Virus record (IMG/VR): IMGVR_UViG_3300020147_000009
Span: 530 to 64,529 of that record
Length of the DNA stretch: 64,000 bases
Source of the DNA: a virus
Direction: 5' to 3' (one strand)
The number at the start of each line of letters is the position of its first letter. The first letter of the stretch is position 1. Under the pieces are notes generated by a model. It was given only the letters and a program-made list of their open reading frames with translations. It was not told the origin of the DNA and ran no database searches. The position numbers and the translations under genes were made by a program. Of this stretch, positions 5,974 to 47,378 are shown in pieces.

Positions 5974-6408
5974 TTATTCAAGATAGCTGATTGGTTTATT
6001 AGTATAGATTGCATATTCAATCTCAGATTGGGTTGAGGAACCAATATACCCATCCTTGTTAATCACATAGACTTCATCAGCTAAATCGATTTTCCTCTTA
6101 TGTAGGTTATCCAATGCTTCCTTCTCAGATAAAGTAATAGTATCATTATCTGTATGCATGAAGAAACCAACTGACAAAACAATATATCCTTTAAGAGTGA
6201 ATTCTTTATTAGCCTTATAGAATTCATCCTTGAATTTTGTTGAACCACATAAACAAACAACTTTTACATCTTTTAGTCTCTTAGCTGTATCATGAACAGC
6301 TTTAAGAGAACCATCAAACTTATGTAGAAGCTGAGGAAAATCATCATCAACTATAGCTGTCTGTCTTACGTTTAAACCGTCTTCAATTGCATTTATAAAT
6401 TTCTTCAT
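5974..6408 (-). CDS. nucleoside 2-deoxyribosyltransferase-like (NDT/DNPH1-like Rossmann) protein
   Basis: N-terminal VVCLCGSTKF and C-terminal GSSTQSEIEYAIYTNKPISYL match the NDT-family pattern (DxGTxxExGyA...KPv). Confidence 0.5.
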   Translation of the reverse strand: MKKFINAIEDGLNVRQTAIVDDDFPQLLHKFDGSLKAVHDTAKRLKDVKVVCLCGSTKFKDEFYKANKEFTLKGYIVLSVGFFMHTDNDTITLSEKEALDNLHKRKIDLADEVYVINKDGYIGSSTQSEIEYAIYTNKPISYLE

Positions 6409-7292: not shown

Positions 7293-8404
7293 TTAAACAC
7301 TTTCAATATAATACAATTTGAGTTAATTCTACCTGTTGGGATATATGTTGTGCCTTTGATATCACGTAATCCCATTTCCATTTTCTTTCGAGTCAGAGTT
7401 GCAAATTCCTTTAACATTTCTGGCTTACGAATAGTCTTCATTGAAGATTTCTCTGGTTCGAAGTTTACTAAAGTAGTTCCCTTGACAGATATGTTTTCAC
7501 CAACATATCTCGCCAGTTTCCTATACTTGATATCAAATACCCATACTTCATTTGAACCAATGATATCTGCTGGATTTTCAGACTTTATTCCAAGCTCAGA
7601 ATCTTCCATCTTATATTTTAGATTCTTGACCAATACACCGGCAGGTTTTACCTTTTTAGTCCTTGGTTTACGAACCTTTGTTGATATACCATAAATCTTT
7701 ACTGCTTCTCCAATAGACTCATACCAAGCCAGCAACTTCTTAATCTTAGACTTAGATACATGACTCCAAGCCTCGTTAAGTTGTTCATCCTTACCTTCCA
7801 ATAAGGTCTTCAGTTCAGAAATAATATGAGTGTAGAATTTAGGAATATGATTTGCAACTGGTCGACTTACGTTATTCGACTTTAGAATTCCGTCAACAGG
7901 AGGAAGTGGAATGTCTTTTGTGATAAACTCATCTACTGCATAGTCAAATTCACTTGAGAATTCATGAGCTTTTTCAAGGATTTTTTCTTGAATGTTTACA
8001 ACGTTCTTGCTTGGCTCTTTTTCTTCTTCTACTTCTTTGATTGAATTCTTGTATGCGATTTGCATCTTAACTAGATGTTCGATTTTTGTATCAACCCAAT
8101 TTAGGTCTTTCTTTGCCAAATCGATACCACGAGTCTTCATTCTGATTATAGCACCCAAAGTATGGAAGTGATAATCTGGCAGTTCTGATATTTCGTCAAG
8201 CTTGGTGGGATGATTCTTCTTAACGTAATCTAGAACCCACTTCTTCTTAACTTTATTATCTACCATCACATTGTAGTAATTGAGAGCATACATCAATTCA
8301 AGACGATAATTCTCTTTCTTGATTGTTGTTGGTTCAATAGAGCCTGAAACTTCTCTCTCGAACTTCTCTATAATTCTACGATTTTTTGCACTGGAAGAAG
8401 CCAT
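7289..8404 (-). CDS. hypothetical protein (371 aa)
   Basis: Long ORF with AGGGG SD and canonical early promoter upstream. Confidence 0.55.
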   Translation of the reverse strand: MASSSAKNRRIIEKFEREVSGSIEPTTIKKENYRLELMYALNYYNVMVDNKVKKKWVLDYVKKNHPTKLDEISELPDYHFHTLGAIIRMKTRGIDLAKKDLNWVDTKIEHLVKMQIAYKNSIKEVEEEKEPSKNVVNIQEKILEKAHEFSSEFDYAVDEFITKDIPLPPVDGILKSNNVSRPVANHIPKFYTHIISELKTLLEGKDEQLNEAWSHVSKSKIKKLLAWYESIGEAVKIYGISTKVRKPRTKKVKPAGVLVKNLKYKMEDSELGIKSENPADIIGSNEVWVFDIKYRKLARYVGENISVKGTTLVNFEPEKSSMKTIRKPEMLKEFATLTRKKMEMGLRDIKGTTYIPTGRINSNCIILKVFK

Positions 8405-8433
8405 GTAATTCCCCTAATTTAATAAGTAAGATA

Positions 8434-8463
8434 ATTATATATCATTTTTTGACTAAAGTAAAA
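8434..8463 (-). promoter_or_regulatory. early promoter (TTTTACTTTA-N16-TATAAT)
   Basis: Minus strand reads ttttactttagtcaaaaaatgataTATAAT about 30 nt upstream of ATG at 8404. Confidence 0.55.
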
Positions 8464-8529
8464 TTTTAAATTTCAATAATATTTAAATTATCAATATTTA
8501 TCATTTACTTATAGTCAAAAAACGTTAAA

Positions 8530-8880
8530 TTATGGAAGTTGGTCACCAATTTCTGGGTCGAATGGTAGGTCACAGCTTCTGAACTTTCCAGTTGAGTATA
8601 AGCTGGCAGGACCTGGAAAATCTTCCCAATAGATTGAGATGAAATTACTATCACCAATCCAACATCCTTTACCTGTTGTTCCGTCAGGTGCAGTCCAGTC
8701 GGCTCTATAGAAAGAACCATGAGTGGTTACAGGACACGCGAGCAAAGTAATCTTTACTTCACTTCCATCTGAGAATTTACGGCACATTTCCTTGTCATGA
8801 CCAGGCACAACAGCTGCGTTAGCAAAAGTAGTGCTTAATAATAATCCAATTGCTACAATATAAGTAATAAGTTTCTTCAT
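8530..8880 (-). CDS. secreted protein with signal peptide (MKKLITYIVAIGLLLSTTFANA)
   Basis: ORF 8530..8913; preferred start ATG 8878-8880 with AGGAAAA SD; cleavable signal peptide. Confidence 0.5.
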   Translation of the reverse strand: MKKLITYIVAIGLLLSTTFANAAVVPGHDKEMCRKFSDGSEVKITLLACPVTTHGSFYRADWTAPDGTTGKGCWIGDSNFISIYWEDFPGPASLYSTGKFRSCDLPFDPEIGDQLP

Positions 8881-8888
8881 TAATTTTC

Positions 8889-9314
8889 CTAATAACCCCA
8901 TTCGTCTCTCCAAGAATCACCTGAATCTCTGTACGCATAATCAACAAAGGTATAATAGTCTCTTAAGCAATCAGTCTCATCATATAACTCACTTGATAAG
9001 ATTAATAAAACACAGTCTGATGATATCTCAGATATTTCAATCCAATATAGTTTATCAATATCTAAACCAATATTGGGTTCGTTTAAGTAGAAAGATTCAA
9101 CCTTTGTTCCAGAATCAGTGTAAATCTTACATGAACCTGAAACAGCAATAAAAACCTGTCTACATTTCTTATGAGCCACAAACCCATGAGATTTTACTCC
9201 TCTTAGGTATTGAACTCTTTTTATATCAAATGGAAAGCTGATGTTAGGTTCCAACATTGTGAAGGAACCTAACTCATCAACAAACTCATCTAATTTTAAA
9301 ATATTCACACTCAT
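8889..9314 (-). CDS. cupin-fold sugar-nucleotide 3,4-ketoisomerase-like protein (FdtA/WxcM-like)
   Basis: FDIKRVQYLRGVKSHGFVAHKKCRQVFIAVSGS resembles the conserved core of the FdtA/WxcM cupin family. Confidence 0.45.
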   Translation of the reverse strand: MSVNILKLDEFVDELGSFTMLEPNISFPFDIKRVQYLRGVKSHGFVAHKKCRQVFIAVSGSCKIYTDSGTKVESFYLNEPNIGLDIDKLYWIEISEISSDCVLLILSSELYDETDCLRDYYTFVDYAYRDSGDSWRDEWGY

Positions 9315-10049
9315 TTAGAATTGTCTTGTTGATAGCTTCTTTTGGCTTGATACGTAATAATCTTCAATGAATTTGAAGTGTCTTTCATAGACATGAAGAG
9401 ACGAAGCTGACCAAATGATATCACCAACATCAACAAACAAATCTGCTGCTAACATCTTTAAAACATAACTTTGCCAAGCTCTGTCGTTCTTATATCCAAA
9501 TACTGCGTCGTTACTTCTCATCTTTACGTGGGCGTGAATCTTACCACCACGAATCAAATATGTTACAGAATCAGTGCAGATAAAGTCAGACATTCCGTCT
9601 TTATTATAATCTTTATGCATACTTGGACGAGTGTAAATCATATTTGCTCTACGAGAATATGGATTCTTCTTGAGTTCAGCCAAAACATTTTCGTATTGGT
9701 TTCCATTTTCTTCTGAGTAAATACACCAACCATAGTTAGAGTTAATCATCCCTGCTGAGCTTGCTACAGCCTTCCAGATTTCTGGAGCACCACCTGGGAT
9801 ATCAGCAACAAATCTTGATTTAGACTTATACCATTGAACTTCACGTTCAACATAGTCCCAATTAACTTCACCAAAAATGGATTCTTCAGAAGCTAAGAAA
9901 GTACAACCAACTAACTCAACCATCTTAACGCCGGATTTATCAATTACAAAATTACCAGCTCTATATCTTTTAGCTAAGGACTCCCTAATATATTCAATAT
10001 TATGGTATTCTTTAATAGTACCAAATTCATGATTATTTGCATTAATCAT
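9315..10049 (-). CDS. 42: dCMP hydroxymethylase (T4 gene 42 homolog)
   Basis: Strong collinear similarity to T4 gp42 (VDKSGVKMVEL, YKSKSRFV, EIWKAVASS, INSNYGW, NPYSRRANMIYTRPSM, DYNKDGMSDFICT, MRSNDAVFG); 244 aa vs 246. Confidence 0.9.
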   Translation of the reverse strand: MINANNHEFGTIKEYHNIEYIRESLAKRYRAGNFVIDKSGVKMVELVGCTFLASEESIFGEVNWDYVEREVQWYKSKSRFVADIPGGAPEIWKAVASSAGMINSNYGWCIYSEENGNQYENVLAELKKNPYSRRANMIYTRPSMHKDYNKDGMSDFICTDSVTYLIRGGKIHAHVKMRSNDAVFGYKNDRAWQSYVLKMLAADLFVDVGDIIWSASSLHVYERHFKFIEDYYVSSQKKLSTRQF

Positions 10050-10051
10050 AA

Positions 10052-10417
10052 TTACTCCTCAACATTCTTCTTTACTTGAACAGGTTTATTCAACCAATCT
10101 CTATCTGGTGTCTGACCGTCTACTTTTCCACGGCAATAAGCAACACCAAAACTACAATAGTTAATCAAATCAATCAAAGAATCTTCAATTGATTCAAAGT
10201 TTGGATTATATTCAGGGTCCATCTCCATAGCTTCCATGACTGACATAACACGAAGAAGTTTGCCATGAATTGAATCAACAATTGTTGCTAGGCCACGTGG
10301 ATAGTAATCAGCCTGTTTGATTCTTGATTTTGGGTTTTGATAGTCATTTGACTTTTTAAGTTGAAGCTCAGCAGCTTCTTGTAATACCTTAATAGATTCT
10401 TTATTTTCTTTAGCCAT
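10052..10417 (-). CDS. hypothetical protein (121 aa)
   Basis: ORF between gene 42 and MazG-like gene. Confidence 0.5.
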   Translation of the reverse strand: MAKENKESIKVLQEAAELQLKKSNDYQNPKSRIKQADYYPRGLATIVDSIHGKLLRVMSVMEAMEMDPEYNPNFESIEDSLIDLINYCSFGVAYCRGKVDGQTPDRDWLNKPVQVKKNVEE

Positions 10418-10418
10418 G

Positions 10419-10838
10419 TTATTCCTCGTAAAGTTTAGATAGAAGACCTACATTATCTGCGTGAGTTGGAGCTGTCCAACCGGTCGGTTTAATTAGGTCA
10501 GGAAGACCAAGTGGATTTGGTCGATTTGGATTAACGCCTGGGTTCTTAGCCATATTTGCAAAATGAACCCTATCCCAAGCCTCTTGAGCATCAACATCAA
10601 AAGCATTTAGGGTACCAATAGCGACAACACACAGGTCAATAAGAGCATCTACAACATCATCCGCATTTTTAGCGGTATTCATTTCATCAAGTTCTTCTTG
10701 AAGAAACTTGATTCTGAATTCAAGAAACTGTTTGAGCTTTTCTGGTGGAAGGTTTCTGATAACTTCGTTAACACCAAATTTTGTATGCATTGCAGCGATA
10801 TCTGCAATCCAGTCATTTTGAATAGCAATTCCGTACAT
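10419..10838 (-). CDS. MazG-like all-alpha NTP pyrophosphohydrolase (candidate dCTPase, gp56-like role)
   Basis: LKQFLEFRIKFLQEELDEM...DALIDLCVVAIG fits MazG/HisE-type EExxE/D motifs; adjacent to dCMP hydroxymethylase. Confidence 0.6.
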   Translation of the reverse strand: MYGIAIQNDWIADIAAMHTKFGVNEVIRNLPPEKLKQFLEFRIKFLQEELDEMNTAKNADDVVDALIDLCVVAIGTLNAFDVDAQEAWDRVHFANMAKNPGVNPNRPNPLGLPDLIKPTGWTAPTHADNVGLLSKLYEE

Positions 10839-10885
10839 ATAATCTCTTTTAATTTAAGAAGATTAATTGTAGTATTTTTGGCTAT

Positions 10886-11299
10886 TTAAAGTAAAATTTT
10901 GTTTTTAACGTGTTTCTTATGGATTTTGCAGGATACCCATGAATTGTAATATGAATCATCAAGTAAGACGTGACGATTGAATATTTCCCAGGTTTCTAGG
11001 TATGAGCACTCTGATTTTGATTTACAGAGGTGTAGAATTTCTCTGGAGAAGTTGTCTTCTCCGATAGTTTTAACTTCTTCTTTTAGTTCTTCACTTGAGC
11101 CGTAGTATTCTTGCCAGTCTGATTCTTTTACAACTTTCTTTTTTCTGGTAGAACCCTTCACGGCTTTTCGTGAAGTAAAATTAAAAAGCTTTTTACCGAC
11201 GTACTTTCTTCCGTCTTTTAAGTTGGTGATAAGATAGACAAAGCCAATGTAACCTTCTGGAATTTCTGTCAGTTCTTTCCCACTATATATCCAGTTCAA
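10886..11299 (-). mobile_element. free-standing GIY-YIG homing endonuclease (Seg-like); TTG start
   Basis: GYIGFVYLITNLKDGRKYVGKK GIY-YIG motif; sits in intergenic position with its own promoter-like upstream sequence. Confidence 0.6.
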
Positions 11300-11458
11300 T
11301 TAATCTTCGTCTTCTGTTATTTCTTCTTCTTCACTTGAAATATCTGCTCCACAAAATGGGCAATATACAAGGTCTGTTAATCCGGCGTACTCCGACTCTT
11401 TGATTGTGATTTTGCAGTTATTTCCACATGTCTCACAAGAAACGTTTTTTGATGCCAT
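11300..11458 (-). CDS. small zinc-ribbon protein (52 aa), not in ORF track
   Basis: Translated by hand: MASKNVSCETCGNNCKITIKESEYAGLTDLVYCPFCGADISSEEEEITEDED; two CxxC pairs; AGAGGGAA SD upstream. Confidence 0.4.
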   Translation of the reverse strand: MASKNVSCETCGNNCKITIKESEYAGLTDLVYCPFCGADISSEEEEITEDED

Positions 11459-11467
11459 TATTCCCTC

Positions 11468-11737
11468 TTAGAATAGTTTTGGTCTATTAGCTAGTCTTAT
11501 AAGTATCTCACCATGGCATCTATTTGGATAACAGTGGCAACCTAAAACTTTACCTCTGAGCTCTTCTATATCAGCCATTAATTCCGGATTATTTCTAATC
11601 CATACAGAATATTTATATATTACTTCAGCTCTAGTTCCATCTTCTCCTATTTTAAATGGGTTTCCCCACTTAGAAGGTCTTCCTATATAGACATCATACT
11701 TGTCCTTCTTACAATGGACTAGCAGTTGTTTCTCCAT
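11468..11737 (-). CDS. DUF4326-family protein
   Basis: YDVYIGRPSKWGNPF...LGCHCYPNRCHGEIL matches the conserved DUF4326 signature. Confidence 0.55.
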   Translation of the reverse strand: MEKQLLVHCKKDKYDVYIGRPSKWGNPFKIGEDGTRAEVIYKYSVWIRNNPELMADIEELRGKVLGCHCYPNRCHGEILIRLANRPKLF

Positions 11738-12236
11738 TTTTCTCTTTCCAAAATGGCTTCAATTCATCTCTTACTTCAGTCATGATTTGACCTAATAGAT
11801 TCAAACCTTTCCATTTTGTTGGGTCACCTACATCTGGATGGTCTTCACCCATTCCAATTCCCCAGATTCTATCAAACGGAGAAGCCTCAGCTAATCGAGT
11901 ATCCATACTAATAAGAATGAGATAGTTTAGAAGGTTCTCATTCTGTTTAAATCTTTCAAGAGTAATTCTTTTTACAATTGGATATCTATAGTCTTTCCAC
12001 TTATCTTCATCGAAGTTTCTAACTTCTCTACCCAAGTCCTTGTGTAGACTTGGGTTTGATGTTGACATTATCTTTGCGGCAGTTTCAAGGTCACCCATGA
12101 GCATTGCTTTATAATACATCATAGCTTGCTCACCACAACAAAACTTTACTCCGTCAATAATAAAGTCATTCATGTGCCAATTAGATATCTTTTCCTTCCA
12201 GAAGAAGGTGTAACCATTAATTCTTTTCATTGACAT
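11709..12236 (-). CDS. NADAR / YbiA-like (DUF1768) family protein
   Basis: FFWKEKISNWHMNDFIIDGVKFCCGEQAMMYYKA typical NADAR N-terminal motif; probable start at Met3 (ATGA overlap with nrdA). Confidence 0.65.
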   Translation of the reverse strand: MSMKRINGYTFFWKEKISNWHMNDFIIDGVKFCCGEQAMMYYKAMLMGDLETAAKIMSTSNPSLHKDLGREVRNFDEDKWKDYRYPIVKRITLERFKQNENLLNYLILISMDTRLAEASPFDRIWGIGMGEDHPDVGDPTKWKGLNLLGQIMTEVRDELKPFWKEKNGETTASPL

Positions 12237-13930
12237 GCCTCACATTCCTTGCTAGCTTGAACCCCAGCTTGTGTATAGATATAATAAAGGGCTAGAATAT
12301 TCTCGTCCAAGAAAGCCTCTTTGTGAACTTCACTAATCCATTCTTCATCTTCTTCAGCAGCAAAGAATAGGTTCAGTGATTGCCATTGGTCGATAAATTT
12401 TGCTCTTCCAGCAGCCAATCTAATTACTACCTTTTGGTTGATTTCAAACGCGGTTTTGAATACTGCTTTTTCTTCTGGTGTCAACCATTCAACATGTTGG
12501 ACCGAACCCATTTTATCCTTAATGTCTTTAACATTTCTTCTGTTATAGACACCCTTCTTTTTCATTATTTCAAGAAGTTTAGGGTTGATACGGTCTACTT
12601 CACCACCTGCAGTTGTTTGAGTGTACGACATAGCTGGGTCAAGATTGATACCTTCAGAAACTCCACCCATTAGAAGAGCAGTTGATTTTGTCGGAGCAAT
12701 AGCGATTCTATGTGTATTTCTTAATCCAAGACCCTTACACCATTCAGGTTCACCTAATTCACTAGCCATCCATTGAGATGCCTTAAGAGATTCATCCCAA
12801 ATATGTTTTGCAATTTCTGTGTTCTTCCACATAGCATCAAGAGATTCAAACGGAATCATATTTTCTTGAAGATAGGTATGGAAACCACATTGGCCAAGAC
12901 CAAGAGCCCTTCCCTTTTGAGTGAATCTAACAGCCTTCTCTAAACCAGGAATATCCTTACCCTTTTGGATGAACTCTTCAGCAACACAATCAAGAAATAT
13001 AGTTGCCCAAAATACAGCATCCGTATTTTTCCATTCGTCATACTTAGCGACATTCATAGAAGATAGAACACATGTATAAGTATGATCAGTATCAGAATGA
13101 AGAGTAATTTCTGAGCAAAGGTTAGAAGCCTTAACTGTTAAGTCATGTTTCTTGTATGATTCTGGTCTTTTACGATTAATTTTATCAACGAATAGGAAAT
13201 AACCCTTACCATGAACCATCTTTAGTTTCATGGCCTTTTGGTAACGTCGTATATAGTCTTCATTACCTTCGTTCAAACCTTTGGTGAATTCATCAGTGAC
13301 AATCCAACCAACGTTTGCATCATCTGGTTCTGAATTAACAAAGTCAGCTAATTCATCAAAGTCAGAATGAGTAAGTTCAAGGTAACCAGCCCAAGCTCCT
13401 CTTCGAGCAGTTCCTTGAGCAACGTCTCTCATGTCTTGAACAAAACCCTTAAAGACAGGAACTACACCAGAAGACTTTCCACCCTTACTAATCTTTGACC
13501 CTCTTGGTCTAACAGCTCCAAGGTAAGCAGAAGTACCAAAACCATGTTTAGTTAGGACTGCAGTTTCTCGTCTAGCTGTATAGAAACCATCAATCGAATC
13601 TTCTACATATCCACCTGAGCAAGAAACCGGCATACCTCTATCAGTACCCATGTTTGCAAGAACTGGAGTAGATGGGCTAACCCAACCTTTCCAAAATAAT
13701 TCAAAGAATTTTTCTCTTGCTAGGTCTTCCAATCCAATACCAGCAAGGTGTTTAGCTGCCGTCGCCGCAAGTCTTTCAAATTGACCCTTTACTGAATCAG
13801 TCCCGTATAGATACTTATCTAGAAATAATTGAAGACCTCCAGTTGAGTACCAATCCGGAACCAAACCTTCCACTTGCATTGTTTTTCTTTTTGAAGACAG
13901 TTCTTCATATAAATCTACATCTTTTACCAT
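12227..13930 (-). CDS. nrdA: class I ribonucleotide reductase large subunit (short form without ATP-cone)
   Basis: NLCSEI active-site motif, VLANMGT, C-terminal CEACQ redox pair; followed by R2 gene. Confidence 0.85.
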   Translation of the reverse strand: MVKDVDLYEELSSKRKTMQVEGLVPDWYSTGGLQLFLDKYLYGTDSVKGQFERLAATAAKHLAGIGLEDLAREKFFELFWKGWVSPSTPVLANMGTDRGMPVSCSGGYVEDSIDGFYTARRETAVLTKHGFGTSAYLGAVRPRGSKISKGGKSSGVVPVFKGFVQDMRDVAQGTARRGAWAGYLELTHSDFDELADFVNSEPDDANVGWIVTDEFTKGLNEGNEDYIRRYQKAMKLKMVHGKGYFLFVDKINRKRPESYKKHDLTVKASNLCSEITLHSDTDHTYTCVLSSMNVAKYDEWKNTDAVFWATIFLDCVAEEFIQKGKDIPGLEKAVRFTQKGRALGLGQCGFHTYLQENMIPFESLDAMWKNTEIAKHIWDESLKASQWMASELGEPEWCKGLGLRNTHRIAIAPTKSTALLMGGVSEGINLDPAMSYTQTTAGGEVDRINPKLLEIMKKKGVYNRRNVKDIKDKMGSVQHVEWLTPEEKAVFKTAFEINQKVVIRLAAGRAKFIDQWQSLNLFFAAEEDEEWISEVHKEAFLDENILALYYIYTQAGVQASKECEACQ

Positions 13931-14868
13931 ACGAATGATTTTTCATCCCAATCTCTGTTATATTGTGAGCCCATACCACTAAAGAAGTCGTTATATTGGT
14001 AACCATTGATACCATCATAAAACCATTCAGCGATAGGATTATAAGTTATTTTGAATAGGTTATTGAATCCCAATTCTTGTAGAACTTGGTTGATTCTTGA
14101 TTCTACGAAGTGTTTCATTTGAACGGCTGTAATTCCGTCGATTGGACCCTTCTCAAAAATCATCTCAATAATTCTACATTCATGATTATATAGTTCCGTC
14201 GCCATATTGAGAATTTCAATACGTAAATCCTCAAGTTCGTCCTCATTAAGTTTGAATTTTGGCAACTTCTTCTTGAATACATATGCACCAGCCATGGAAT
14301 GAAGGTTTTCATCCCTAACAGAGAAGTTGATGCCTCGTACTACGTTTAGAAGTTTGTTCTTTCCTTTTGATTGGAAATGTTTAAGGAAAGCAAAACTGGA
14401 ATAGAGAATAACACCTTCAACAAGAGAGAATCCTGCTAGAGACAATAACTCATTCTTTGAGGATACTATGGAATCAATGTATTCCATTCTTGATTTTAGA
14501 GTTGGGTCGTTTACATATGAATCATAAAAATCATCGGTGTTAACGTATAACAATTCATTTAAAGTGGCATAGAACGGTTTATGCACAGCCAATTCGAATG
14601 CCCCAAATACTGCTGCCATTCTGTGGGCTTCTGCAGACTTATTGGTTCGCATAAACTTACCTAACCAATAATCCGTTCCTGCTTTTAATTCATATAATGT
14701 GAATAGTTTTAATGTTGTGATGACACCATGTTTTTCTGCTGGTGTCATATTTACAAGAATGTCTTGAATATCCTTCTCTACTTTAATTTCTGTTGGGGAC
14801 CAGAAAATCTTCCATTGTTGTTCAGCAAACTCTACTAGCTGCTTATCTACCTCTATCGGTGAATACAT
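13924..14868 (-). CDS. nrdB: ribonucleotide reductase small subunit R2
   Basis: Ferritin-like di-iron R2 motifs (EGVILYSSFAFL, RDENLH). Confidence 0.85.
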   Translation of the reverse strand: MYSPIEVDKQLVEFAEQQWKIFWSPTEIKVEKDIQDILVNMTPAEKHGVITTLKLFTLYELKAGTDYWLGKFMRTNKSAEAHRMAAVFGAFELAVHKPFYATLNELLYVNTDDFYDSYVNDPTLKSRMEYIDSIVSSKNELLSLAGFSLVEGVILYSSFAFLKHFQSKGKNKLLNVVRGINFSVRDENLHSMAGAYVFKKKLPKFKLNEDELEDLRIEILNMATELYNHECRIIEMIFEKGPIDGITAVQMKHFVESRINQVLQELGFNNLFKITYNPIAEWFYDGINGYQYNDFFSGMGSQYNRDWDEKSFVW

Positions 14869-14877
14869 ACTACTCCA

Positions 14878-15120
14878 TTACTTAACTGCGTCTATTAATC
14901 TATCGTGCCTGGTAGCACATTCCGTGTATTGCTTCATTAACTCTATATCGTGTTTGTATAGGTCACCCAACGTATTACCTTCTAATCCTTCAATCTCTGG
15001 GCATTTTACAAGTAAATTACTTGGGATTGGAGCCTTAGGTGGAGTAGTTTCTAATTTAGGTTTATTACTTGCGCAACCTACTAATAATACCACTAAAAGA
15101 ATTGATATGATTTTTTTCAT
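14878..15120 (-). CDS. o-spanin-like outer-membrane lipoprotein
   Basis: Lipobox LLVGCAS, proline-rich TTPPKAPIPS segment; immediately downstream of i-spanin-like gene. Confidence 0.5.
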   Translation of the reverse strand: MKKIISILLVVLLVGCASNKPKLETTPPKAPIPSNLLVKCPEIEGLEGNTLGDLYKHDIELMKQYTECATRHDRLIDAVK

Positions 15121-15509
15121 TATTTTCTCGTGTCATTTAGTGTTTTAGCGGCATCATTGAGAGTTTTTACACCAGATTCTGGTACAAGGCATTGATTATA
15201 AACAGGTTTTTCAACCTCTTTAATAACCGTATTCTCAATGATTTTCTCTCTAGTCTTAAGGTTCTTAAGATTTTCTTCAAATTTATCAGAAGCACTAGCA
15301 TATTTATCTAATGTCTCCTTTAGATTCTTAGCGTTCTCATCCTTAAGTTTGATTATTTCTTGTTGGTGTGTTATTACTTCTTTCTGTAGTTTGACTTCAC
15401 CTTCATTCAAGCCAGAAGTTCTACCAGCAAAAAATACAGAAGCAACAATAGCTAAAGTTACAAGAACTATTGCTATGTGTTTACCATATTTAATTAGAAA
15501 TAAAGGCAT
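15120..15509 (-). CDS. i-spanin-like protein (N-terminal TM + coiled coil)
   Basis: Single N-terminal TM (IAIVLVTLAIVASVFFA) then K/E-rich coiled coil; paired with lipoprotein gene. Confidence 0.5.
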   Translation of the reverse strand: MPLFLIKYGKHIAIVLVTLAIVASVFFAGRTSGLNEGEVKLQKEVITHQQEIIKLKDENAKNLKETLDKYASASDKFEENLKNLKTREKIIENTVIKEVEKPVYNQCLVPESGVKTLNDAAKTLNDTRK

Positions 15510-16327
15510 TATCTCTTTTCCTTTAATTGTGATTCAACATCAACTCTATGTTGCTTCCAACCACGGAAGTTCTTGATGAACTTATTTGGTTTTACAGCCT
15601 TAGCAGGATGTTCAGTTGGAGAAGCGTGAATAGGAACCGAACCAACCAATCTGTTATACAACTCAATATCTTTATCAATTGAAGGAGTCTTACCATCATG
15701 AGTTAGATAAGAAACTCTAGCACAACGAGCTGTTGATAACATCATACATTTAGCCATCGGAAGAGTATTTCTTTCTTCTTTACTTACATATGGAAGATGG
15801 TAGTGAGATACCACTGGATTTGATGCATCTATTGCTTTCTTCATTTCAATAGCAAGTTCTCTGATTTCAGGTTGGGCATCCTTATGGTCTCGTAGAGAAT
15901 CCCAATTATCAGTTTCAGTTGCCGTCATAACAACAGAAATATATTGCCAAGGTTCCAATAATCTATTTAGAGTTTGTTTATGTGGTTTAGCAACTACATT
16001 AGCTAACCAAACAAAAGAACAAACTGCTTTACCTGTGAAAGACCAAATAAATTTAGTAAATTTAAGCTTAAATCCTGTCAATTCATGAGCTGCCTGCATT
16101 CCTGCTTGATTTGCACCCCAATGGATTGGACCTGCTGGGTCGTTCCAAACCTGTTTCAAAAACGTCTTAATAGGAATTGCTCTTGAACTTGAAGCATTAC
16201 GGGAAAACACTCTGTGAGTCATGAACTCAGCATGAATGCTCCTCCAATACTTAAGTTGATACGTTGTAAGACGAACTCCGTTGTAAGGGTTGATACTGTC
16301 TTCAATAATCTTTACTTCACAAGCCAT
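15509..16327 (-). CDS. thyX: flavin-dependent thymidylate synthase ThyX
   Basis: ThyX signature THRVFSRNASSSRAIP (RHRx7S-type). Confidence 0.85.
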   Translation of the reverse strand: MACEVKIIEDSINPYNGVRLTTYQLKYWRSIHAEFMTHRVFSRNASSSRAIPIKTFLKQVWNDPAGPIHWGANQAGMQAAHELTGFKLKFTKFIWSFTGKAVCSFVWLANVVAKPHKQTLNRLLEPWQYISVVMTATETDNWDSLRDHKDAQPEIRELAIEMKKAIDASNPVVSHYHLPYVSKEERNTLPMAKCMMLSTARCARVSYLTHDGKTPSIDKDIELYNRLVGSVPIHASPTEHPAKAVKPNKFIKNFRGWKQHRVDVESQLKEKR

Positions 16328-16534
16328 TTATTCTTCTTCCTCTTCTTCTGAAAATTTGTATTCTACTGGTATATTCAGCAACATAGCCATTGTTGATACT
16401 ACATCCTCAACTGCATTCATACCATCCCAGCCTATGCTATCATGAGTTATAGTAGCAATCTCGACGTCATTAAGAAATATTACCTTTTTCTCTTCATTAA
16501 CTAAATCTTCTACTATGGTTATTCTATCAGTCAT
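16328..16534 (-). CDS. hypothetical protein (68 aa, acidic EEEEEE tail)
   Basis: ORF. Confidence 0.4.
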   Translation of the reverse strand: MTDRITIVEDLVNEEKKVIFLNDVEIATITHDSIGWDGMNAVEDVVSTMAMLLNIPVEYKFSEEEEEE

Positions 16535-16763
16535 TTATTTTCTCATATTCATTTTTAAAAATTCTAAAAGTTCTTTTGTCTATAATATATTTCTGTTCAT
16601 GAGCTACATAGACTTTATTATCGTCAAAATACTTAATTACTTGTAACTCTTCTCCTTCCCAAGCAAGTACTCCTGGAGGAGCATAGTCATCACCGTTGTC
16701 GTAGATTGTTGTTTTCAGCCTAACTTTATAAAATGGAAGGTTATTACTCACAACAGTCTCCAC
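16527..16763 (-). CDS. hypothetical protein (78 aa)
   Basis: ORF. Confidence 0.4.
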   Translation of the reverse strand: METVVSNNLPFYKVRLKTTIYDNGDDYAPPGVLAWEGEELQVIKYFDDNKVYVAHEQKYIIDKRTFRIFKNEYEKIND

Positions 16764-16935
16764 TAAAGAAATATCTAAATTTAAATTCTCTCCATTCTAG
16801 TATCTTTTCGAACATCATGTATTTTTGGTCATCAGAAGTTATTTGGAATGTACAATTTTCATCAGTTTTGAGTAATTGTTCTACATCAACTCCTTCGACC
16901 TTACATATATACAATGTATTTGGTTTCAAATTCAC
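16744..16935 (-). CDS. hypothetical protein (63 aa)
   Basis: ORF. Confidence 0.35.
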   Translation of the reverse strand: MNLKPNTLYICKVEGVDVEQLLKTDENCTFQITSDDQKYMMFEKILEWREFKFRYFFSGDCCE

Positions 16936-17954
16936 TTAATTTTTCTCCATGCTTTATATTTTAATAATGCAGAAAGACCTTGATGGGTGTTTTCGGTAAT
17001 CATATTTAATACTTCAGTTTGATTGATACCGTTCATAACACACTCATTAATATCCTTAAATCGTATTTTATCAGGCCAAATAAACACCCTATATCCACTA
17101 TCGATTGTCTTCTGCATAGCGTTCATAATTTCTTTAGACCTTGGTTCATTGTCATAAATGATAATACACTTATTTTTATTCTTCTGAACAAAATCCAAAT
17201 TCATCGCCGAACCAGCAGCAGCAATACAATTAGGGAGGAATAGAGAATCAATTTGACCTTCTACGATGTAGATGTCCTTCTTACAATCGATTGATTCTAA
17301 CCCATATATTTTTTCCTTAGTTTCATCAAACTTAATGGTTAAATACTTGGGTTTTTCGTTACCAAAAGCTCTACCAGCTATAGCGAATGGGATATTACTT
17401 TCATCAAAGAAAGGAAATATCAATCTTGGATGTTCGTATTTTTCTGAACCTTCTGGATAAGTACCTGGTTTAACTGAATTTATCCATTTAATAAATCTAG
17501 CAGAAAAATAAATCCTATCCCATTTATCCTCTGGAATTTTTCTTTTGGTGATATATTTAATGGCAGGATGGTCTTTATTGAACTCCTTGACACATATAAT
17601 ATCATCCAAAATATTATTCGTTTGGATTGGTTTTACTATTTCTCTTTCAAGAGTTTCTTGAACAACGTTGCGAGAGGTAAAGCTTGAGAACTTCTTTTCA
17701 AGAATCCATTGACGATAAACCTTCTCATCGATGAACTTTAGAACCATCCCGAAAGAGTATGGTGCGTTACAGTTGTAGCACTTGAATGAGTAAGAGGAAT
17801 CTCCTTTATAGAACCATCCTCTGGCTATTCTTTGCTTTTTCTTTGAGTCACCACAGATTGGGCAGGAGAAATTGTAATCATCTCCGGCTTTTCTATTAAA
17901 GTTTCTTAACTTATGGGATATTAAAGAAATGTACTTTTGGTCAACGTAAATCAT
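16932..17954 (-). CDS. 61: DNA primase (T4 gp61-like, zinc finger + TOPRIM)
   Basis: CPICGDS...C..C zinc finger and YIVEGQIDSLF TOPRIM motif; 340 aa vs 342 in T4. Confidence 0.85.
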   Translation of the reverse strand: MIYVDQKYISLISHKLRNFNRKAGDDYNFSCPICGDSKKKQRIARGWFYKGDSSYSFKCYNCNAPYSFGMVLKFIDEKVYRQWILEKKFSSFTSRNVVQETLEREIVKPIQTNNILDDIICVKEFNKDHPAIKYITKRKIPEDKWDRIYFSARFIKWINSVKPGTYPEGSEKYEHPRLIFPFFDESNIPFAIAGRAFGNEKPKYLTIKFDETKEKIYGLESIDCKKDIYIVEGQIDSLFLPNCIAAAGSAMNLDFVQKNKNKCIIIYDNEPRSKEIMNAMQKTIDSGYRVFIWPDKIRFKDINECVMNGINQTEVLNMITENTHQGLSALLKYKAWRKIK

Positions 17955-17959
17955 AATAA

Positions 17960-17990
17960 ATTATAATCACGTGACGTATTTAAAGTAAAA
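17960..17990 (-). promoter_or_regulatory. early promoter motif (TTTTACTTTAAA-N13-TATAAT) abutting primase ATG
   Basis: Minus strand ttttactttaaatacgtcacgtgatTATAATttattATG; -10 lies only 5 nt from the ATG. Confidence 0.4.
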
Positions 17991-17991
17991 T

Positions 17992-18492
17992 CTATGTTGT
18001 TACAGGTTTCTTAAATCTCTTAAGAACTGTCTTTGGTTTCTTTTTACCAAGAATTTCGGCTGCATCTGCTGAGCCGTTTGTAGCAGCTATGTTTCCACCA
18101 CCAACGTTATTAGCGGCAACTTCTTCTGCTATTAGAGTTTCTTCAACGTTCACAACATTTTTAAGTCTGTCATGAATTTCGAAAAGTTTGGATTCGGAAA
18201 TATCGTCGCTGTTTTCGTAATTTTCCTTAACTAGAAAATATGCTGAAACGATATTCTTAAGTTTTGATTCTCCACCTGGAAGCTTATTGATTATTTTCTT
18301 AGTATTAAACACATACCTGTGGAGAAGTGTATATGCTTCTTTTTGTTCTGTTGTTGTAAAATTCTTTGTCGGAATTAGGTTATTACCATTCTCATCAATA
18401 ATTCCAAGCTTATAAGCTGCGGTTTCGGTAAATGGTTTTACCAACATTTCAATAATTCTAAATGTTATTAGGTTATCAACTACTCTTTGCAT
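17992..18492 (-). CDS. hypothetical protein (166 aa)
   Basis: ORF. Confidence 0.5.
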   Translation of the reverse strand: MQRVVDNLITFRIIEMLVKPFTETAAYKLGIIDENGNNLIPTKNFTTTEQKEAYTLLHRYVFNTKKIINKLPGGESKLKNIVSAYFLVKENYENSDDISESKLFEIHDRLKNVVNVEETLIAEEVAANNVGGGNIAATNGSADAAEILGKKKPKTVLKRFKKPVTT

Positions 18493-23000: not shown

Positions 23001-23420
23001 TAGTTCATCCTCATGATTTACTTCTTCTATCAATGATTCTTCTTTTAATTTAGGAAGCTCGTCATGATAAATATAACCTTCACCTGCATTTTTATTCCAA
23101 GTTCCTATGGTTCCCTTTTTAGTATGGGTTGCATTATTACCAGAAACGTATCCACCAAGAGATTCTGCCTTTTTCTTCCACTCAGATTTGTCTTGGAACA
23201 ATTCTTTATATTTTGAACCCTCTTTAATAGGAATTTCATCCTTACGCTTTTGTTCTTCATGGTCATTTTCACCATTATGAACAACTATACCAGATTCTCT
23301 ATTAGCACCAACCTTAATCTCACCAGAAGCAATCTTCTTTTTAGTTTCTATCTGCTTTAGTTTAGTTGCCAGAATCTTATGACCGCGGGATTCTAGAATG
23401 TCAGTTAATTTCTTTGCCAT
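20100..23420 (-). CDS. giant hydrophilic His/Lys/Asp/Gly-rich protein (1106 aa), function unknown
   Basis: Uninterrupted 3.3-kb ORF; recurring H-x-DG / GxH / KH segments; translationally coupled to upstream 706-aa gene. Confidence 0.7.
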   Translation of the reverse strand: MAKKLTDILESRGHKILATKLKQIETKKKIASGEIKVGANRESGIVVHNGENDHEEQKRKDEIPIKEGSKYKELFQDKSEWKKKAESLGGYVSGNNATHTKKGTIGTWNKNAGEGYIYHDELPKLKEESLIEEVNHEDELKKEYNIYKDRGDTVIHHKSGKDRPYRITHEDGVHTLRQGYQQRIHLPVKWSKVKSSENISDLHKAIIKRHNKSAEYMPGWKKLNEELLDEAVKTGNEGYGYHGTHSENADENYSKTHAKVKKVVGEAGHLKDVKNPNVTIKHYLDSNRGKHLKGREDDHEYIAKDFSKFKREYKPELHEGVVPEAPSHLSPAERKKWLDDYLENHYKHSVKASKDTQNLAAELAKQREKRIYGESTELDEGKSLSGMDKHIKNTQKNLKGTDAHPYINRLTGQAIPNHKVVHVSKDVSHQKIYDHLAKHGFQHPRGWGQDRKSLYIRHSSESMITHSDSMHHPDGTSVHLEHEHGDKHQKLIFTHRPIKESLDEAKKDGYNTDIESHGKIHKEINRDYRKTNKFGYIGGIEHSHISADGNHAVLAWRHMGIGSGGNKTTHMVGDFHKGEDGVWKHKGIHARAGQRNIKQKIQEFKDRKLNESIELNMNEEYHRVIVTVSEPDHPSVIQRKVQKERRAKVKASSKEAAVEIAKKHYKKYGYKVHGAEHIEQLKEESLPINESMNEVDGNKILHDSDGKGETNIKWDMTKHKSVYAAHNHVLGILKKDAIEPKIKQKTGTHHEFYFKDGSSSTIKTVESNGRIISSFNHIRRMNEETTLEESPSSENHAAHNSLVSNAGHSYSGKGHYLKKDGKYVSKRHDSADSAMTTWRNMSDHEKKGIKIVHEDYENDMIIDENTEHDHILQSLANNDINADIKNGKVVVHNSNIGKAKSHIKKLGHDIPVIGGLNEKVEEMKSFKFSEYLNEKTSEIIEDTIETKSGYCLKSGDEVISVYFESASDAIKEWDSLEENQDIEIVFEDYTIDINEEAKAHYRSTLPASRILHDKNKSSLKDIHDTWGNDKMTVHVVSDREGKHKYFVGSGHTNEKVGDIIYAKHDQTQKDLGSHTIRNKIHLENGKIVHKDNDIGVDKPHPMHVFK

Positions 23421-30579: not shown

Positions 30580-30930
30580 TTAATGGACAGATTTTCCTTC
30601 AGCCATATTTTCATTTCTTAGGTCAATCACTTCTTTTGTTTCCATGTTATCGTCGGTAAATACAACTACTTTTGGGGATATATCAGGAAATAGAGTTGAA
30701 GCATAGATGAAGGTTATCTTAGCACATTGCTTAGGGTCTTCATGGGACAGGTCGGTGACCAATGTGACGTTATAATCTGAATTATCAAATGAAGGTAAAA
30801 ATATGAAGAGGAGAGCTCGGTAATAAGAACCTCCATCTTCGGTTTCCATATGTTCTAGGTGAATCTGTACTTGCTCTGGTTCAAAAACTCCCCAATTAGG
30901 GATAAAATCTACTTTCTTTATATCAGTCAT
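30580..30930 (-). CDS. hypothetical protein (116 aa)
   Basis: ORF. Confidence 0.5.
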   Translation of the reverse strand: MTDIKKVDFIPNWGVFEPEQVQIHLEHMETEDGGSYYRALLFIFLPSFDNSDYNVTLVTDLSHEDPKQCAKITFIYASTLFPDISPKVVVFTDDNMETKEVIDLRNENMAEGKSVH

Positions 30931-46026: not shown

Positions 46027-46093
46027 TTCACTTTATCCATAATTAAAAAGACAATTCTATTATAATGCAAATTAGATTTAAAGTACATATTTC

Positions 46094-47251: not shown

Positions 47252-47351
47252 TACTTTTTACCTTTATTTCAGTTGTTTCGTGATTTTCTTGAGACCACAG
47301 GCAGAATTTTGTTTCGTTTTAGAAAGTAGCTGCCCTAAAAACTCATAGAAG

Positions 47352-47359
47352 TATTTATA
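47352..47359 (-). promoter_or_regulatory. late promoter box TATAAATA upstream of MIPS-like gene
   Basis: Plus gtatttataa; about 100 nt upstream of ATG 47251. Confidence 0.4.
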
Positions 47360-47378
47360 ATCACAGAAGAGAACTATA

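What the first reader, a model, noticed from the sequence alone, without database searches (positions are those of the whole stretch)
8889..10838. FdtA/WxcM-like cupin (sugar-nucleotide ketoisomerase fold) immediately downstream of dCMP hydroxymethylase and MazG-type dCTPase
In T4 the gene 42 neighbourhood carries beta-gt. Here the adjacent gene encodes a small cupin whose conserved core resembles dTDP-4-keto-6-deoxyhexose 3,4-isomerases. A nucleotide-sugar isomerase next to the hmC-producing enzyme supports the idea that the sugar donor for DNA modification is remodelled rather than plain UDP-glucose.
Basis: partly seen in the sequence, partly recalled or inferred. Interest (0 to 1): 0.6.

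Follow-up and report, generated by a model that had tools for sequence, protein, structure and literature searches.

The report
Divergent FdtA-type cupin beside hydroxymethylase
A T4-like phage from a metagenome carries, where T4 has its DNA glucosyltransferase, a small protein with the fold of a sugar-nucleotide isomerase that has lost the key catalytic histidine; related phages carry full dTDP-sugar pathways at this spot, but this copy is probably not a working isomerase.

Summary
Window 8889-10838 (- strand) is a tight four-gene operon: MazG-like pyrophosphohydrolase, DUF1599-like protein, a T4-type dCMP hydroxymethylase (PDB 1b49, E=1e-79) and a 141-aa FdtA/WxcM cupin (Pfam E=3.5e-31; AF2 model on FdtA at TM 0.88).

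The cupin sits where beta-glucosyltransferase sits in T4. In related phages this slot holds hmC-decoration cassettes:
- The closest relative (gp42 82% identical) has RmlA and RmlB there.
- Another T4-like contig has RmlA, FdtA, an acetyltransferase, an aminotransferase and a beta-gt homologue.

So donor remodelling beside gene 42 is well supported as a theme.

This copy is not canonical. The catalytic base His49 is Val46, the RGxHAH arginine is His43, the stereochemistry-setting pair is Leu15/Ile92, and Tyr116 is Cys. It deviates at 3 of 13 near-invariant columns; only 1 of 100 relatives does the same. No relative exceeds 45% identity. No RmlA/B, aminotransferase, acetyltransferase or glycosyltransferase was found in the 84 kb of the contig I could see.

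Best reading: a neofunctionalised, probably non-isomerising derivative of a dTDP-sugar cassette. A separate module at 43.9-48.4 kb is the stronger candidate for this phage's own hmC chemistry.

The parts
10419..10838 (-). MazG-like (PRA-PH family) nucleoside triphosphate pyrophosphohydrolase, 139 aa. First gene of the operon. The dCTPase role is inferred only.
   Evidence: PF01503 33.7 bits (cut-off 21.3) and phrog_671 E=2.5e-20. Conserved MazG-DUF1599-gp42 trio in IMG/VR T4-like contigs L019-L023, L025, L027, L031, L037, L041 and in L066. Not a T4 gp56 orthologue.
10052..10417 (-). DUF1599-like small helical protein, 121 aa ('nucleotide modification associated domain 1').
   Evidence: PF07659 E=0.0019, below cut-off. 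phrog_1485 E=3e-13. phrog_18404 covers this protein and MazG in one profile, so the two are fused in some phages. 52-79% identical homologues lie beside gp42 in many loci.
9315..10049 (-). dCMP hydroxymethylase (T4 gene 42 orthologue), 244 aa.
   Evidence: PDB 1b49 E=1e-79 (271 bits). Catalytic Cys and specificity Asp aligned. Only 58 bits to PDB entries 9iqu/9iqc, deposited as thymidylate synthases; I infer, without having verified it, that these are RB69-type 5-hydroxy-dCMP synthases (PMC13326640).
8889..9314 (-). FdtA/WxcM-family cupin, 141 aa, with a non-canonical pocket: Leu15, His43, Val46, His48, Ile92, Cys116.
   Evidence: Pfam PF05523 E=3.5e-31. PDB FdtA and QdtA. AF2 pLDDT 92.8 and Foldseek TM 0.88 to 2pa7. 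Position statistics on 100 relatives. No relative above 45% identity in 1.84 billion representatives.
8530..8880 (-). 116-aa Cys-rich protein with an N-terminal signal-peptide-like segment. Last gene of the same tightly spaced run. No assigned role.
   Evidence: Gene call in L001/L042. Sequence and AGGAAA ribosome-binding site. No Pfam or PHROG match.
10866..10895 (-). Sigma-70-like promoter match upstream of MazG (TTTACT-18-TACAAT). Weak evidence only.
   Evidence: The region has fewer promoter-like sites than shuffled controls, so this is a lead, not a finding. No terminator-like site on the - strand between 10838 and 8530.

Best explanation
The 141-aa protein is a true member of the FdtA/WxcM cupin family, the fold of dTDP-4-keto-6-deoxyhexose 3,4-ketoisomerases. 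It is co-transcribed and translationally coupled with MazG, DUF1599 and dCMP hydroxymethylase.

It occupies the slot immediately 3' of gene 42. That slot holds beta-glucosyltransferase in T4 and swappable hmC-decoration cassettes in related T4-like phages, including dTDP-sugar genes.

It most likely descends from such a dTDP-sugar cassette and has since been neofunctionalised. It keeps the fold-determining residues and probably still binds a dTDP-linked ligand. It has lost the catalytic base and the polar residues that hold the hexose, and it has no partner enzymes. It therefore probably does not carry out the canonical 3,4-keto isomerisation.

What is shown: family, fold, residue substitutions, operon layout, slot variability, and dTDP-sugar genes in relatives.

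What is inferred: retained dTDP binding, loss of isomerase activity, descent from a cassette, and any link to the DNA modification of this particular phage.
For: Family and fold.

Pocket changes:
- The PDB mutant sequences 2pae (H49N) and 2pak (H51N) fix the register. His49 aligns with Val46 and His51 with His48.
- QdtA Y17 and R97 align with Leu15 and Ile92 (4zu7 is the Y17R/R97H mutant).
- In 100 nearest single-domain relatives: Arg 97/100 at position 43, His 98/100 at 46, Tyr 95/100 at 116.
- The query deviates at 3 of 13 columns conserved at >=90%, all three polar or functional. It keeps G16, F29, R33, G44, A47, H48, G60, L77, W91 and Y120. Only 1 of 100 relatives deviates as much.
- His49 is the proposed base and His51 the proton shuttle, according to a review of the FdtA structure (PMC2943079). 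The QdtA mutant of the equivalent His was crystallised as a complex (4o9g; the entry title is cut off before it names the ligand).
- Strand 43-48 in the model puts His43 on the opposite face from Val46 and His48 (inference).

Signs the gene is maintained:
- The ORF is intact and its GC3 of 0.27 matches its neighbours.
- Its Pfam score is 108 bits, against 158 bits for the canonical phage FdtA of L004.

Slot:
- In T4, b-gt lies 3' of gene 42.
- L066 is 72% identical at nucleotide level over 2.4 kb. Collinearity ends about 40 nt before the gp42 stop, and RmlA and RmlB follow.
- L004 has the full pathway plus a beta-gt homologue.
- Other occupants of the slot were seen.
Against: No biochemical data exist. 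A single remaining His (His48) or another residue could still support slow or altered catalysis.

About 40 kb of the 124-kb contig could not be read and might encode partners or a glycosyltransferase.

The gene is a singleton. No relative above 45% identity was found, so purifying selection cannot be measured and a decaying relic is not excluded.

The slot is also a general insertion hot spot: HNH and SegE endonucleases sit nearby. Position alone is therefore weak evidence of function.
Confidence: 0.45

Rival explanations
1. First reader's view. The cupin is an active dTDP-4-keto-6-deoxyhexose 3,4-ketoisomerase. It takes the RmlA/RmlB product from the host and remodels the sugar donor used to glycosylate hmC in this phage.
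For: Strong family and fold match. Operon with gp42. The sister phage makes the FdtA substrate from the same slot. L004 shows the full logic with a beta-gt homologue. His48, the equivalent of FdtA His51, is retained. Rare single-domain relatives also lack the first His (P0055 Leu, P0148 Asn).
Against: The catalytic base is replaced by Val, where 98 of 100 relatives have His. The Arg of RGxHAH, the stereochemistry pair and Tyr116 are also changed. A 3-keto sugar needs a downstream aminotransferase or reductase, and none was found. No beta-gt or other glycosyltransferase turned up in 84 kb. Canonical FdtA genes are almost always followed by the aminotransferase.
Confidence: 0.2
2. Decaying relic. 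The gene is the inactive remnant of a lost dTDP-sugar cassette and has no present function.
For: Loss of the catalytic base and of conserved polar residues. No partners. Singleton with no close relatives. The sister phage has different content in the slot.
Against: The ORF is an intact 141 aa with no frameshift. All glycine, aromatic and aliphatic fold-determining columns are kept despite about 60% overall divergence. The model is confident (pLDDT 92.8). The start codon abuts the gp42 stop. Composition matches the phage. Phage genomes purge dead genes quickly (general knowledge).
Confidence: 0.15
3. Nucleotide-metabolism role unrelated to sugars. The dTDP-binding cupin was recruited to bind a pyrimidine nucleotide (dTDP, dTMP or hm-dCMP) as a regulator or accessory of the gp42/MazG dNTP-synthesis machinery.
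For: It is coupled to three nucleotide-metabolism genes. The hexose pocket has turned hydrophobic (Leu15, Val46, Ile92). In the unrelated Streptomyces phage Zuko, another lone FdtA-like cupin (gp50, motif RGAHAT) lies one tiny ORF away from ThyX.
Against: There is only one extra example. No FdtA-family member is known to act on free nucleotides. The slot in relatives carries sugar or decoration genes.
Confidence: 0.12
4. Auxiliary gene for host surface glycans. It perturbs or diverts the host's dTDP-sugar pool for O-antigen, S-layer or capsule sugars.
For: This is the usual biological role of the family (PMC2943079). The next gene encodes a secreted small protein.
Against: It sits in an early nucleotide-metabolism operon of a lytic T4-like phage. 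It has no aminotransferase, acetyltransferase or glycosyltransferase partner. The catalytic base is lost.
Confidence: 0.05

Closest known systems
FdtA (Aneurinibacillus thermoaerophilus) and QdtA (Thermoanaerobacterium thermosaccharolyticum), dTDP-4-keto-6-deoxy-D-glucose 3,4-ketoisomerases (PDB 2pa7, 4o9e)
   Same: Same Pfam family (PF05523) and same size, about 140 aa. Same cupin fold (TM 0.88, rmsd 1.0-1.2 A). 36-40% identity. The second histidine and most structural residues are conserved.
   Different: The catalytic base His49 (His51 in QdtA) is Val46. The Arg of RGxHAH is His43. The pair that sets product stereochemistry (R15/H95 in FdtA, Y17/R97 in QdtA) is Leu15/Ile92. Tyr of DYIR is Cys116. 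There is no adjacent aminotransferase or acetyltransferase. It is encoded by a phage next to dCMP hydroxymethylase.
T4 gene 42 and beta-glucosyltransferase module (hmC synthesis followed by glucosylation from UDP-glucose)
   Same: An orthologous dCMP hydroxymethylase. The cupin lies in exactly the position (immediately 3' of gene 42, same strand) that b-gt has in T4.
   Different: No beta-gt or alpha-gt homologue was found in the 84 kb seen. The occupant of the slot is a sugar-nucleotide-type cupin, not a transferase.
NDP-sugar biosynthesis clusters for DNA glycosylation in Straboviridae (RB69 and DLP3 arabinosylation; RL38J1 with UDP-galactopyranose mutase) - Lee et al., NAR 2026, PMC13326640
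   Same: The concept is the same: a phage-encoded thymidylate-synthase homologue clustered with enzymes that make a non-glucose nucleotide-sugar donor.
   Different: Those phages use a 5-hydroxy-dCMP synthase and (proposed) UDP-arabinose or UDP-galactofuranose, with identified glycosyltransferases. Here the TS homologue is T4-type (hmC), the sugar-enzyme homologue is of the dTDP-6-deoxyhexose type, and no transferase was found. dTDP pathways, cupins and ketoisomerases are not mentioned in that paper or in bioRxiv 10.1101/2023.12.21.572611.
Metagenomic T4-like contigs L004/L003 (IMGVR_UViG_3300013111_000136 and 3300013118_000102) and L066 (Logan ERR3697024)
   Same: A gp42-linked FdtA-family gene (L004) and gp42-linked RmlA and RmlB (L066). 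MazG is present. L066 shares 72% nucleotide identity and the same upstream synteny.
   Different: The FdtA of L004 is canonical (RGFHGHK, 158 bits) and has all partners plus a beta-gt homologue. It is only 34% identical to the window cupin and is closer to bacterial FdtAs (45-57%), so the two were acquired independently.

Membership tests
FdtA/WxcM sugar 3,4-ketoisomerase (PF05523) | Sequence matches the family profile above the curated threshold | tested here: met
   108.2 bits against a cut-off of 23, E=3.5e-31, covering profile positions 2-129 of 131.
FdtA/WxcM sugar 3,4-ketoisomerase (PF05523) | Small single-domain cupin beta-barrel that superposes on solved ketoisomerases | tested here: met
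   AF2 pLDDT 92.8. Foldseek gives 2pa7 TM 0.88 with rmsd 1.2 A. The top 42 PDB hits are all 3,4-ketoisomerases.
FdtA/WxcM sugar 3,4-ketoisomerase (PF05523) | Catalytic base histidine (FdtA His49, QdtA His51) | tested here: not met
   Val46 (codon GTG) aligns with His49. The register is fixed by the H49N and H51N mutant sequences in the PDB. His is present in 98 of 100 nearest single-domain relatives.
FdtA/WxcM sugar 3,4-ketoisomerase (PF05523) | Second active-site histidine (FdtA His51) | tested here: met
   His48 is conserved. His is present in 95 of 100 relatives.
FdtA/WxcM sugar 3,4-ketoisomerase (PF05523) | Polar pair that positions the hexose and sets C-4' stereochemistry (R15/H95 inverting, Y17/R97 retaining) | tested here: not met
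   Leu15 and Ile92. Relatives have Arg at position 15 in 69 of 100, and Arg or His at position 92 in 65 of 100. Roles are taken from PMC2943079 and from the title of PDB entry 4zu7.
FdtA/WxcM sugar 3,4-ketoisomerase (PF05523) | Conserved Arg of the RGxHAH motif and Tyr of the DYIR motif | tested here: not met
   His43 (Arg in 97 of 100 relatives) and Cys116 (Tyr in 95 of 100).
FdtA/WxcM sugar 3,4-ketoisomerase (PF05523) | Genomic partnership with a sugar aminotransferase (FdtB/QdtB), with or without an N-acetyltransferase | tested here: not met
   No homologue in the window or the readable flanks (tblastn at E<=10 gave only noise; Pfam scans). In 18 metagenome loci the aminotransferase almost always follows FdtA.
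FdtA/WxcM sugar 3,4-ketoisomerase (PF05523) | Isomerase activity on dTDP-4-keto-6-deoxy-D-glucose | not testable with these tools
   Requires an enzyme assay.
T4-type dCMP hydroxymethylase (gene 42) | Close similarity to T4 dCH, with the catalytic Cys and the cytosine-specifying Asp; distinct from 5-hydroxy-dCMP synthases | tested here: met
   PDB 1b49 at 271 bits. FICTD and KNDRAW are aligned to the T4 Cys148 and Asp179 regions. Only 58 bits to 9iqu/9iqc and 33 bits to MilA. Context from PMC13326640. The product (hmC versus 5hoC) was not tested directly.
MazG / all-alpha NTP pyrophosphohydrolase acting as dCTPase | Family membership; dCTP specificity | tested here: inconclusive
   Family membership is met (PF01503 above cut-off). 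Specificity cannot be tested. The protein is not orthologous to T4 gp56. Conserved linkage to gp42 supports a role in the modified-dCTP pathway.
T4-type hmC glycosylation system (hydroxymethylase plus DNA glycosyltransferase) | A DNA glycosyltransferase encoded by the phage | tested here: not met
   No T4-Gluco-transf, AGT or Glycos_transf Pfam hit in the window or flanks. No tblastn hit with the L004 beta-gt homologue. hhalign of unknown ORFs against the beta-gt family was negative. About 40 kb of the contig was not seen.

The most novel reading that the evidence does not exclude
The cupin is a working enzyme with a non-canonical active site: a single His in a hydrophobic hexose pocket. It would act on a dTDP-6-deoxyhexose made by host RmlA/RmlB. 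This phage, together with relatives such as L066 and L004, would belong to an undescribed group of T4-like phages that decorate hydroxymethylcytosine with dTDP-activated deoxy or amino sugars instead of UDP-glucose. The position 3' of gene 42 would serve as a swap-in cassette site for donor pathways.
Probability: 0.2. Interest if true: 0.75.

Novelty: new variant of a known kind. Interest (0 to 1): 0.5.

Why it matters
Phage DNA sugars decide which restriction, CRISPR and glycosylase defences a phage escapes. Only glucose, arabinose and a few other donors are known so far.

The comparative data gathered here point to dTDP-activated 6-deoxy and amino sugars as a further donor class for hmC in T4-like phages. 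They also point to the gene-42 3' slot as the place where such pathways are exchanged. I found no paper describing this in the searched library.

The window's own cupin matters mainly as a natural active-site variant of a well-studied enzyme family. If it is functional, it shows how a sugar-nucleotide enzyme is re-tooled in a phage. If it is not, it marks the decay of a donor cassette after a switch to another hmC chemistry.

Tried and rejected
1. Close relatives of the cupin:
   - The word-indexed search of 5.8 billion proteins returned only the protein itself.
   - The exhaustive HMMER search of 1.84 billion representatives found nothing above 45% identity.
   - IMG/VR and JGI metagenome scans found nothing close.
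   - dN/dS and synteny of orthologues were therefore impossible.
2. A megablast of window 8000-12000 (4 kb) against 50,697 phage records gave no match.
3. P0134 looked like a second 'VAHK' variant in the HMMER alignment, but that was a mis-registration. Its real motif is RGRHAHK.
4. The four 'Bacteriophage sp.' faecal contigs with FdtA hits are ordinary RmlA-FdtA-aminotransferase polysaccharide clusters with no gp42. They were rejected as phage context.
5. The 80 IMG/VR loci found with the RmlA of L066 contained no further example of gp42 linked to RmlA.
6. BFVD viral structures contain no FdtA-type match, only RmlC-like cupins.
7. I tested whether orf346 (47379-48419) is the missing glycosyltransferase. 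Its C-terminal domain is an SGNH/GDSL fold, not GT-B. Only its N-terminal ~100 aa resemble beta-gt.
8. The 706-aa cytidylyltransferase-like protein was considered as a sugar-activating enzyme. A NAMPT and a NUDIX gene lie in the window and its flank, so NAD salvage is an equally good reading. This is unresolved.
9. The primary FdtA, QdtA and FdtD papers are not held in the library. Residue roles were taken from a review and from PDB entry titles.
Full report
**What is there**

The window is part of a 124-kb ENA metagenome contig (ERZ27257321, k141_670337). It comes from a T4-like phage:
- All genes lie on the - strand.
- It encodes T4-type RNase H, UvsX, a gp41-like helicase, B-family DNA polymerase, RNR, DNA ligase, Rnl1 and others.
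- A megablast of window 8000-12000 found no match in 50,697 phage records.

Coordinates 8889-10838 hold four back-to-back ORFs:
- A MazG/PRA-PH pyrophosphohydrolase, 139 aa.
- A dCMP hydroxymethylase, 244 aa.
- A cupin, 141 aa.

The gaps between them are 1, 2 and 0 nt. The gp42 stop and the cupin start form TAAATG. A fifth gene follows after 8 nt. It encodes a 116-aa Cys-rich protein with a signal-peptide-like N-terminus.

No terminator-like site lies inside the run. One weak promoter-like site lies upstream of MazG.

**The neighbours**

The hydroxymethylase matches T4 dCH (PDB 1b49) at E=1e-79, with the catalytic Cys and the cytosine-specifying Asp aligned. A 2026 paper showed that the thymidylate-synthase homologues of RB69 and DLP3 make 5-hydroxy-dCMP rather than hm-dCMP (PMC13326640). 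The window protein scores 271 bits to T4 dCH. It scores only 58 bits to PDB 9iqu/9iqc, which I take to be the RB69-type synthases although the entries are named only 'thymidylate synthase'. It scores 33 bits to MilA. hmC is therefore the likely product, but this is inferred.

The MazG protein is not a gp56 orthologue. However, the MazG-DUF1599-gp42 trio is conserved in many IMG/VR T4-like contigs. That supports a shared role in the modified-dCTP pathway. dCTPase activity itself is inferred.

**The cupin: family and fold**

- Pfam PF05523 (FdtA): E=3.5e-31.
- phmmer against the PDB: FdtA E=2.3e-28, QdtA E=1e-25, and HCAN_0198, WlaRA/B and FdtD further down.
- An AlphaFold2 model built on a 24-sequence alignment has pLDDT 92.8.
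- Its 42 best Foldseek PDB matches are all characterised sugar 3,4-ketoisomerases (TM 0.83-0.89). RmlC-type epimerases follow only at E~1e-7.

**The cupin: active site**

The PDB holds FdtA H49N and H51N mutant sequences. In the alignment these fix the register: His49 aligns with Val46 and His51 with His48. According to a review of the FdtA structure, His49 is the proposed base that moves the proton from C-3' to C-4'. His51 shuttles protons between the oxygens. His95 (inverting enzymes) or Arg (retaining enzymes) sits near the C-4' oxygen (PMC2943079).

QdtA Y17 and R97 were mutated to the FdtA residues in PDB 4zu7. They align with Leu15 and Ile92.

In a MAFFT alignment of the query with its 100 nearest single-domain relatives, the query differs at these positions:

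| Query position | Relatives | Query |
|---|---|---|
| 43 | Arg 97/100 | His |
| 46 | His 98/100 | Val |
| 116 | Tyr 95/100 | Cys |
| 35 | Tyr or Phe 99/100 | Gln |

Position 48 is His in 95 of 100 relatives, and the query keeps it.

Of 13 columns conserved at >=90%, the query deviates at three, all polar. It keeps every glycine, aromatic and aliphatic column. Only 1 of 100 relatives deviates at three or more.

His43 lies on the same beta-strand as Val46 and His48, but on the other face. It is therefore unlikely to replace the base; this is an inference.

Only two single-domain relatives also lack the first His: P0055 (Leu) and P0148 (Asn).

The Val codon is GTG, which is at least two substitutions away from a His codon. 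The same protein occurs on two contigs read by the look-up. An assembly error is therefore unlikely.

**How isolated the gene is**

Nothing above 45% identity turned up in:
- 1.84 billion cluster representatives.
- IMG/VR.
- JGI metagenomes.

Only six phage records hold any FdtA-like gene:
- Four are unverified faecal contigs that are ordinary RmlA-FdtA-aminotransferase clusters.
- Two are the two records of Streptomyces phage Zuko. Its lone FdtA-like gp50 (motif RGAHAT) lies beside ThyX.

BFVD has no FdtA-type structure.

**The slot**

In T4 the order is imm, 42, b-gt, segA. The cupin therefore stands exactly where beta-glucosyltransferase stands. Related contigs show that this position is variable and is used for hmC-decoration genes.

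1. L066 (Logan ERR3697024) has gp42 82% identical.
   - It is 72% identical at nucleotide level over 2.4 kb and shares the upstream synteny DUF4326, SegE, MazG, DUF1599, gp42.
   - Collinearity ends about 40 nt before the gp42 stop.
   - Downstream come a 117-aa ORF, RmlA (TIGR01207, 437 bits, above cut-off) and RmlB (TIGR01181, cut by the contig end).
   - These two enzymes make dTDP-4-keto-6-deoxyglucose, which is the FdtA substrate.
2. L004/L003 (IMG/VR) carry the following genes in order:
   - gp42;
   - a cupin_2 domain fused to RmlA;
   - a canonical FdtA (RGFHGHK, 158 bits);
   - a hexapeptide acetyltransferase;
   - a DegT aminotransferase;
   - a T4 beta-gt homologue (PDB 1bgt, E=7e-38);
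   - a C5-methylase-like protein;
   - MazG.

   This is a complete predicted route to a dTDP-3-acetamido-3,6-dideoxyhexose plus a DNA transferase.
3. Other loci place further genes near gp42:
   - beta-gt homologues with NTP-transferase-like genes;
   - alpha-gt-like genes;
   - an SDR;
   - UDP-galactopyranose mutase;
   - the orf346 module.

The L004 FdtA is 34% identical to the window cupin, but 45-57% identical to bacterial FdtAs. The two phage lineages therefore acquired the gene independently.

**What is missing in this phage**

I could see 84 kb of the contig (window plus L042 and L043). In that stretch there is no RmlA, RmlB, DegT aminotransferase, hexapeptide acetyltransferase, beta-gt or alpha-gt, and no Pfam glycosyltransferase. 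hhalign of three unknown ORFs against the beta-gt family was negative. Canonical FdtA genes in 18 metagenome loci are almost always followed by the aminotransferase. About 40 kb of the contig remains unread.

**Interpretation**

The gene keeps its fold after about 60% sequence divergence. Its composition matches its neighbours (GC3 0.27), and it is translationally coupled to gp42. This argues for a maintained protein rather than a dead relic.

The selective replacement of the catalytic base and hexose-contacting polar residues by aliphatic ones, together with the absence of partners, argues against a canonical 3,4-ketoisomerase.

My best reading (about 0.45) is a neofunctionalised derivative of a dTDP-sugar cassette. 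It would still bind a dTDP-linked ligand but would not isomerise it in the canonical way.

The rivals are:
- An active isomerase that remodels the donor: about 0.2.
- A relic: about 0.15.
- A nucleotide-binding accessory of the gp42 machinery: about 0.12.
- A host-glycan auxiliary gene: about 0.05.

**Comparison with the literature**

Donor remodelling for phage DNA sugars is now known for arabinose (RB69, DLP3) and for galactofuranose-type donors (RL38J1) (PMC13326640; PMC6024577). Neither that work nor the TET/glycosyltransferase preprint mentions dTDP-6-deoxyhexose pathways, cupins or ketoisomerases. Full-text searches combining phage hmC or hypermodification with dTDP, aminotransferase, thymidylyltransferase or WxcM found nothing relevant.

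The dTDP-sugar theme beside gene 42 therefore appears to be undescribed, but it rests on relatives and not on this window. For the window gene itself the rating is 'new variant of a known kind'.

**Side finding**

Window 43896-48419 holds:
- an HMUDK-helical-domain protein;
- a 130-aa ORF;
- an FkbM methyltransferase;
- an inositol-3-phosphate-synthase-like protein;
- orf346.

The module, without the methyltransferase, recurs directly 3' of gp42 in L067 and beside ThyX in L064. It is a better candidate than the cupin for the chemistry this phage applies to its hydroxymethyl pyrimidines.

Noticed in passing
[not shown]
   Followed up: partly
L004 5684-12649 (IMGVR_UViG_3300013111_000136; also L003): A T4-like contig with gp42, cupin_2+RmlA, a canonical FdtA, a hexapeptide acetyltransferase, a DegT aminotransferase, a T4 beta-glucosyltransferase homologue, a C5-methylase-like protein and MazG. 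This is a full predicted dTDP-3-acetamido-3,6-dideoxyhexose donor pathway next to a DNA glycosyltransferase. I found no description of it in the searched literature.
   Followed up: partly
L066 1725-4336 (Logan ERR3697024 contig, 4.3 kb): The closest relative of the window phage (gp42 82% aa, 72% nt over 2.4 kb) has RmlA and RmlB (cut by the contig end) downstream of gp42, where the window has the cupin. Collinearity breaks about 40 nt before the gp42 stop (window 9358).
   Followed up: yes
L068 10001-14854; L028/L030/L035 about 13500-18000: Other gp42 neighbourhoods carry UDP-galactopyranose mutase plus a C5-methylase-like gene (L068), or a beta-gt homologue followed by a 630-aa protein and an NTP-transferase-like protein. 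Donor-pathway diversity around gene 42 is wide.
   Followed up: no
L063 5974-7318 (Streptomyces phage Zuko, MN204493 genes 48-50): A lone FdtA-like cupin (gp50, motif RGAHAT: second His replaced) lies one 29-aa ORF away from a ThyX-like thymidylate synthase in an unrelated phage.
   Followed up: partly
window 20100-23420 and 23422-25542 (- strand): A 1106-aa ORF has no Pfam or PHROG match. It is followed by a 706-aa protein with an N-terminal cytidylyltransferase-like domain (phrog_3041). NAMPT lies in the flank (L043) and a NUDIX gene at window 63337-63780, so NAD salvage and activation of a sugar or inositol phosphate are both possible readings.
   Followed up: no
window 10886-11299 and 11468-12236 (- strand): A SegE-type GIY-YIG homing endonuclease lies immediately upstream of the MazG operon; it is also present in L066. 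Next to it are DUF4326 and NADAR-domain genes.
   Followed up: no
window 50095-50622; 30923-31414; 5974-6408; 15509-16327 (- strand): An anti-CBASS Acb1 homologue (E=8e-41). One nucleoside 2-deoxyribosyltransferase-like protein (PF15891, 30923-31414) and one weak DUF4406 match, below cut-off (5974-6408). A ThyX-related 272-aa protein (phrog_85, E=3e-74), present alongside the gp42 hydroxymethylase.
   Followed up: no
window 8530-8880 (- strand): A 116-aa Cys-rich protein with a signal-peptide-like N-terminus lies directly after the cupin. T4 has the superinfection-immunity gene imm beside gene 42, so a periplasmic exclusion role is conceivable. This was not tested.
   Followed up: no
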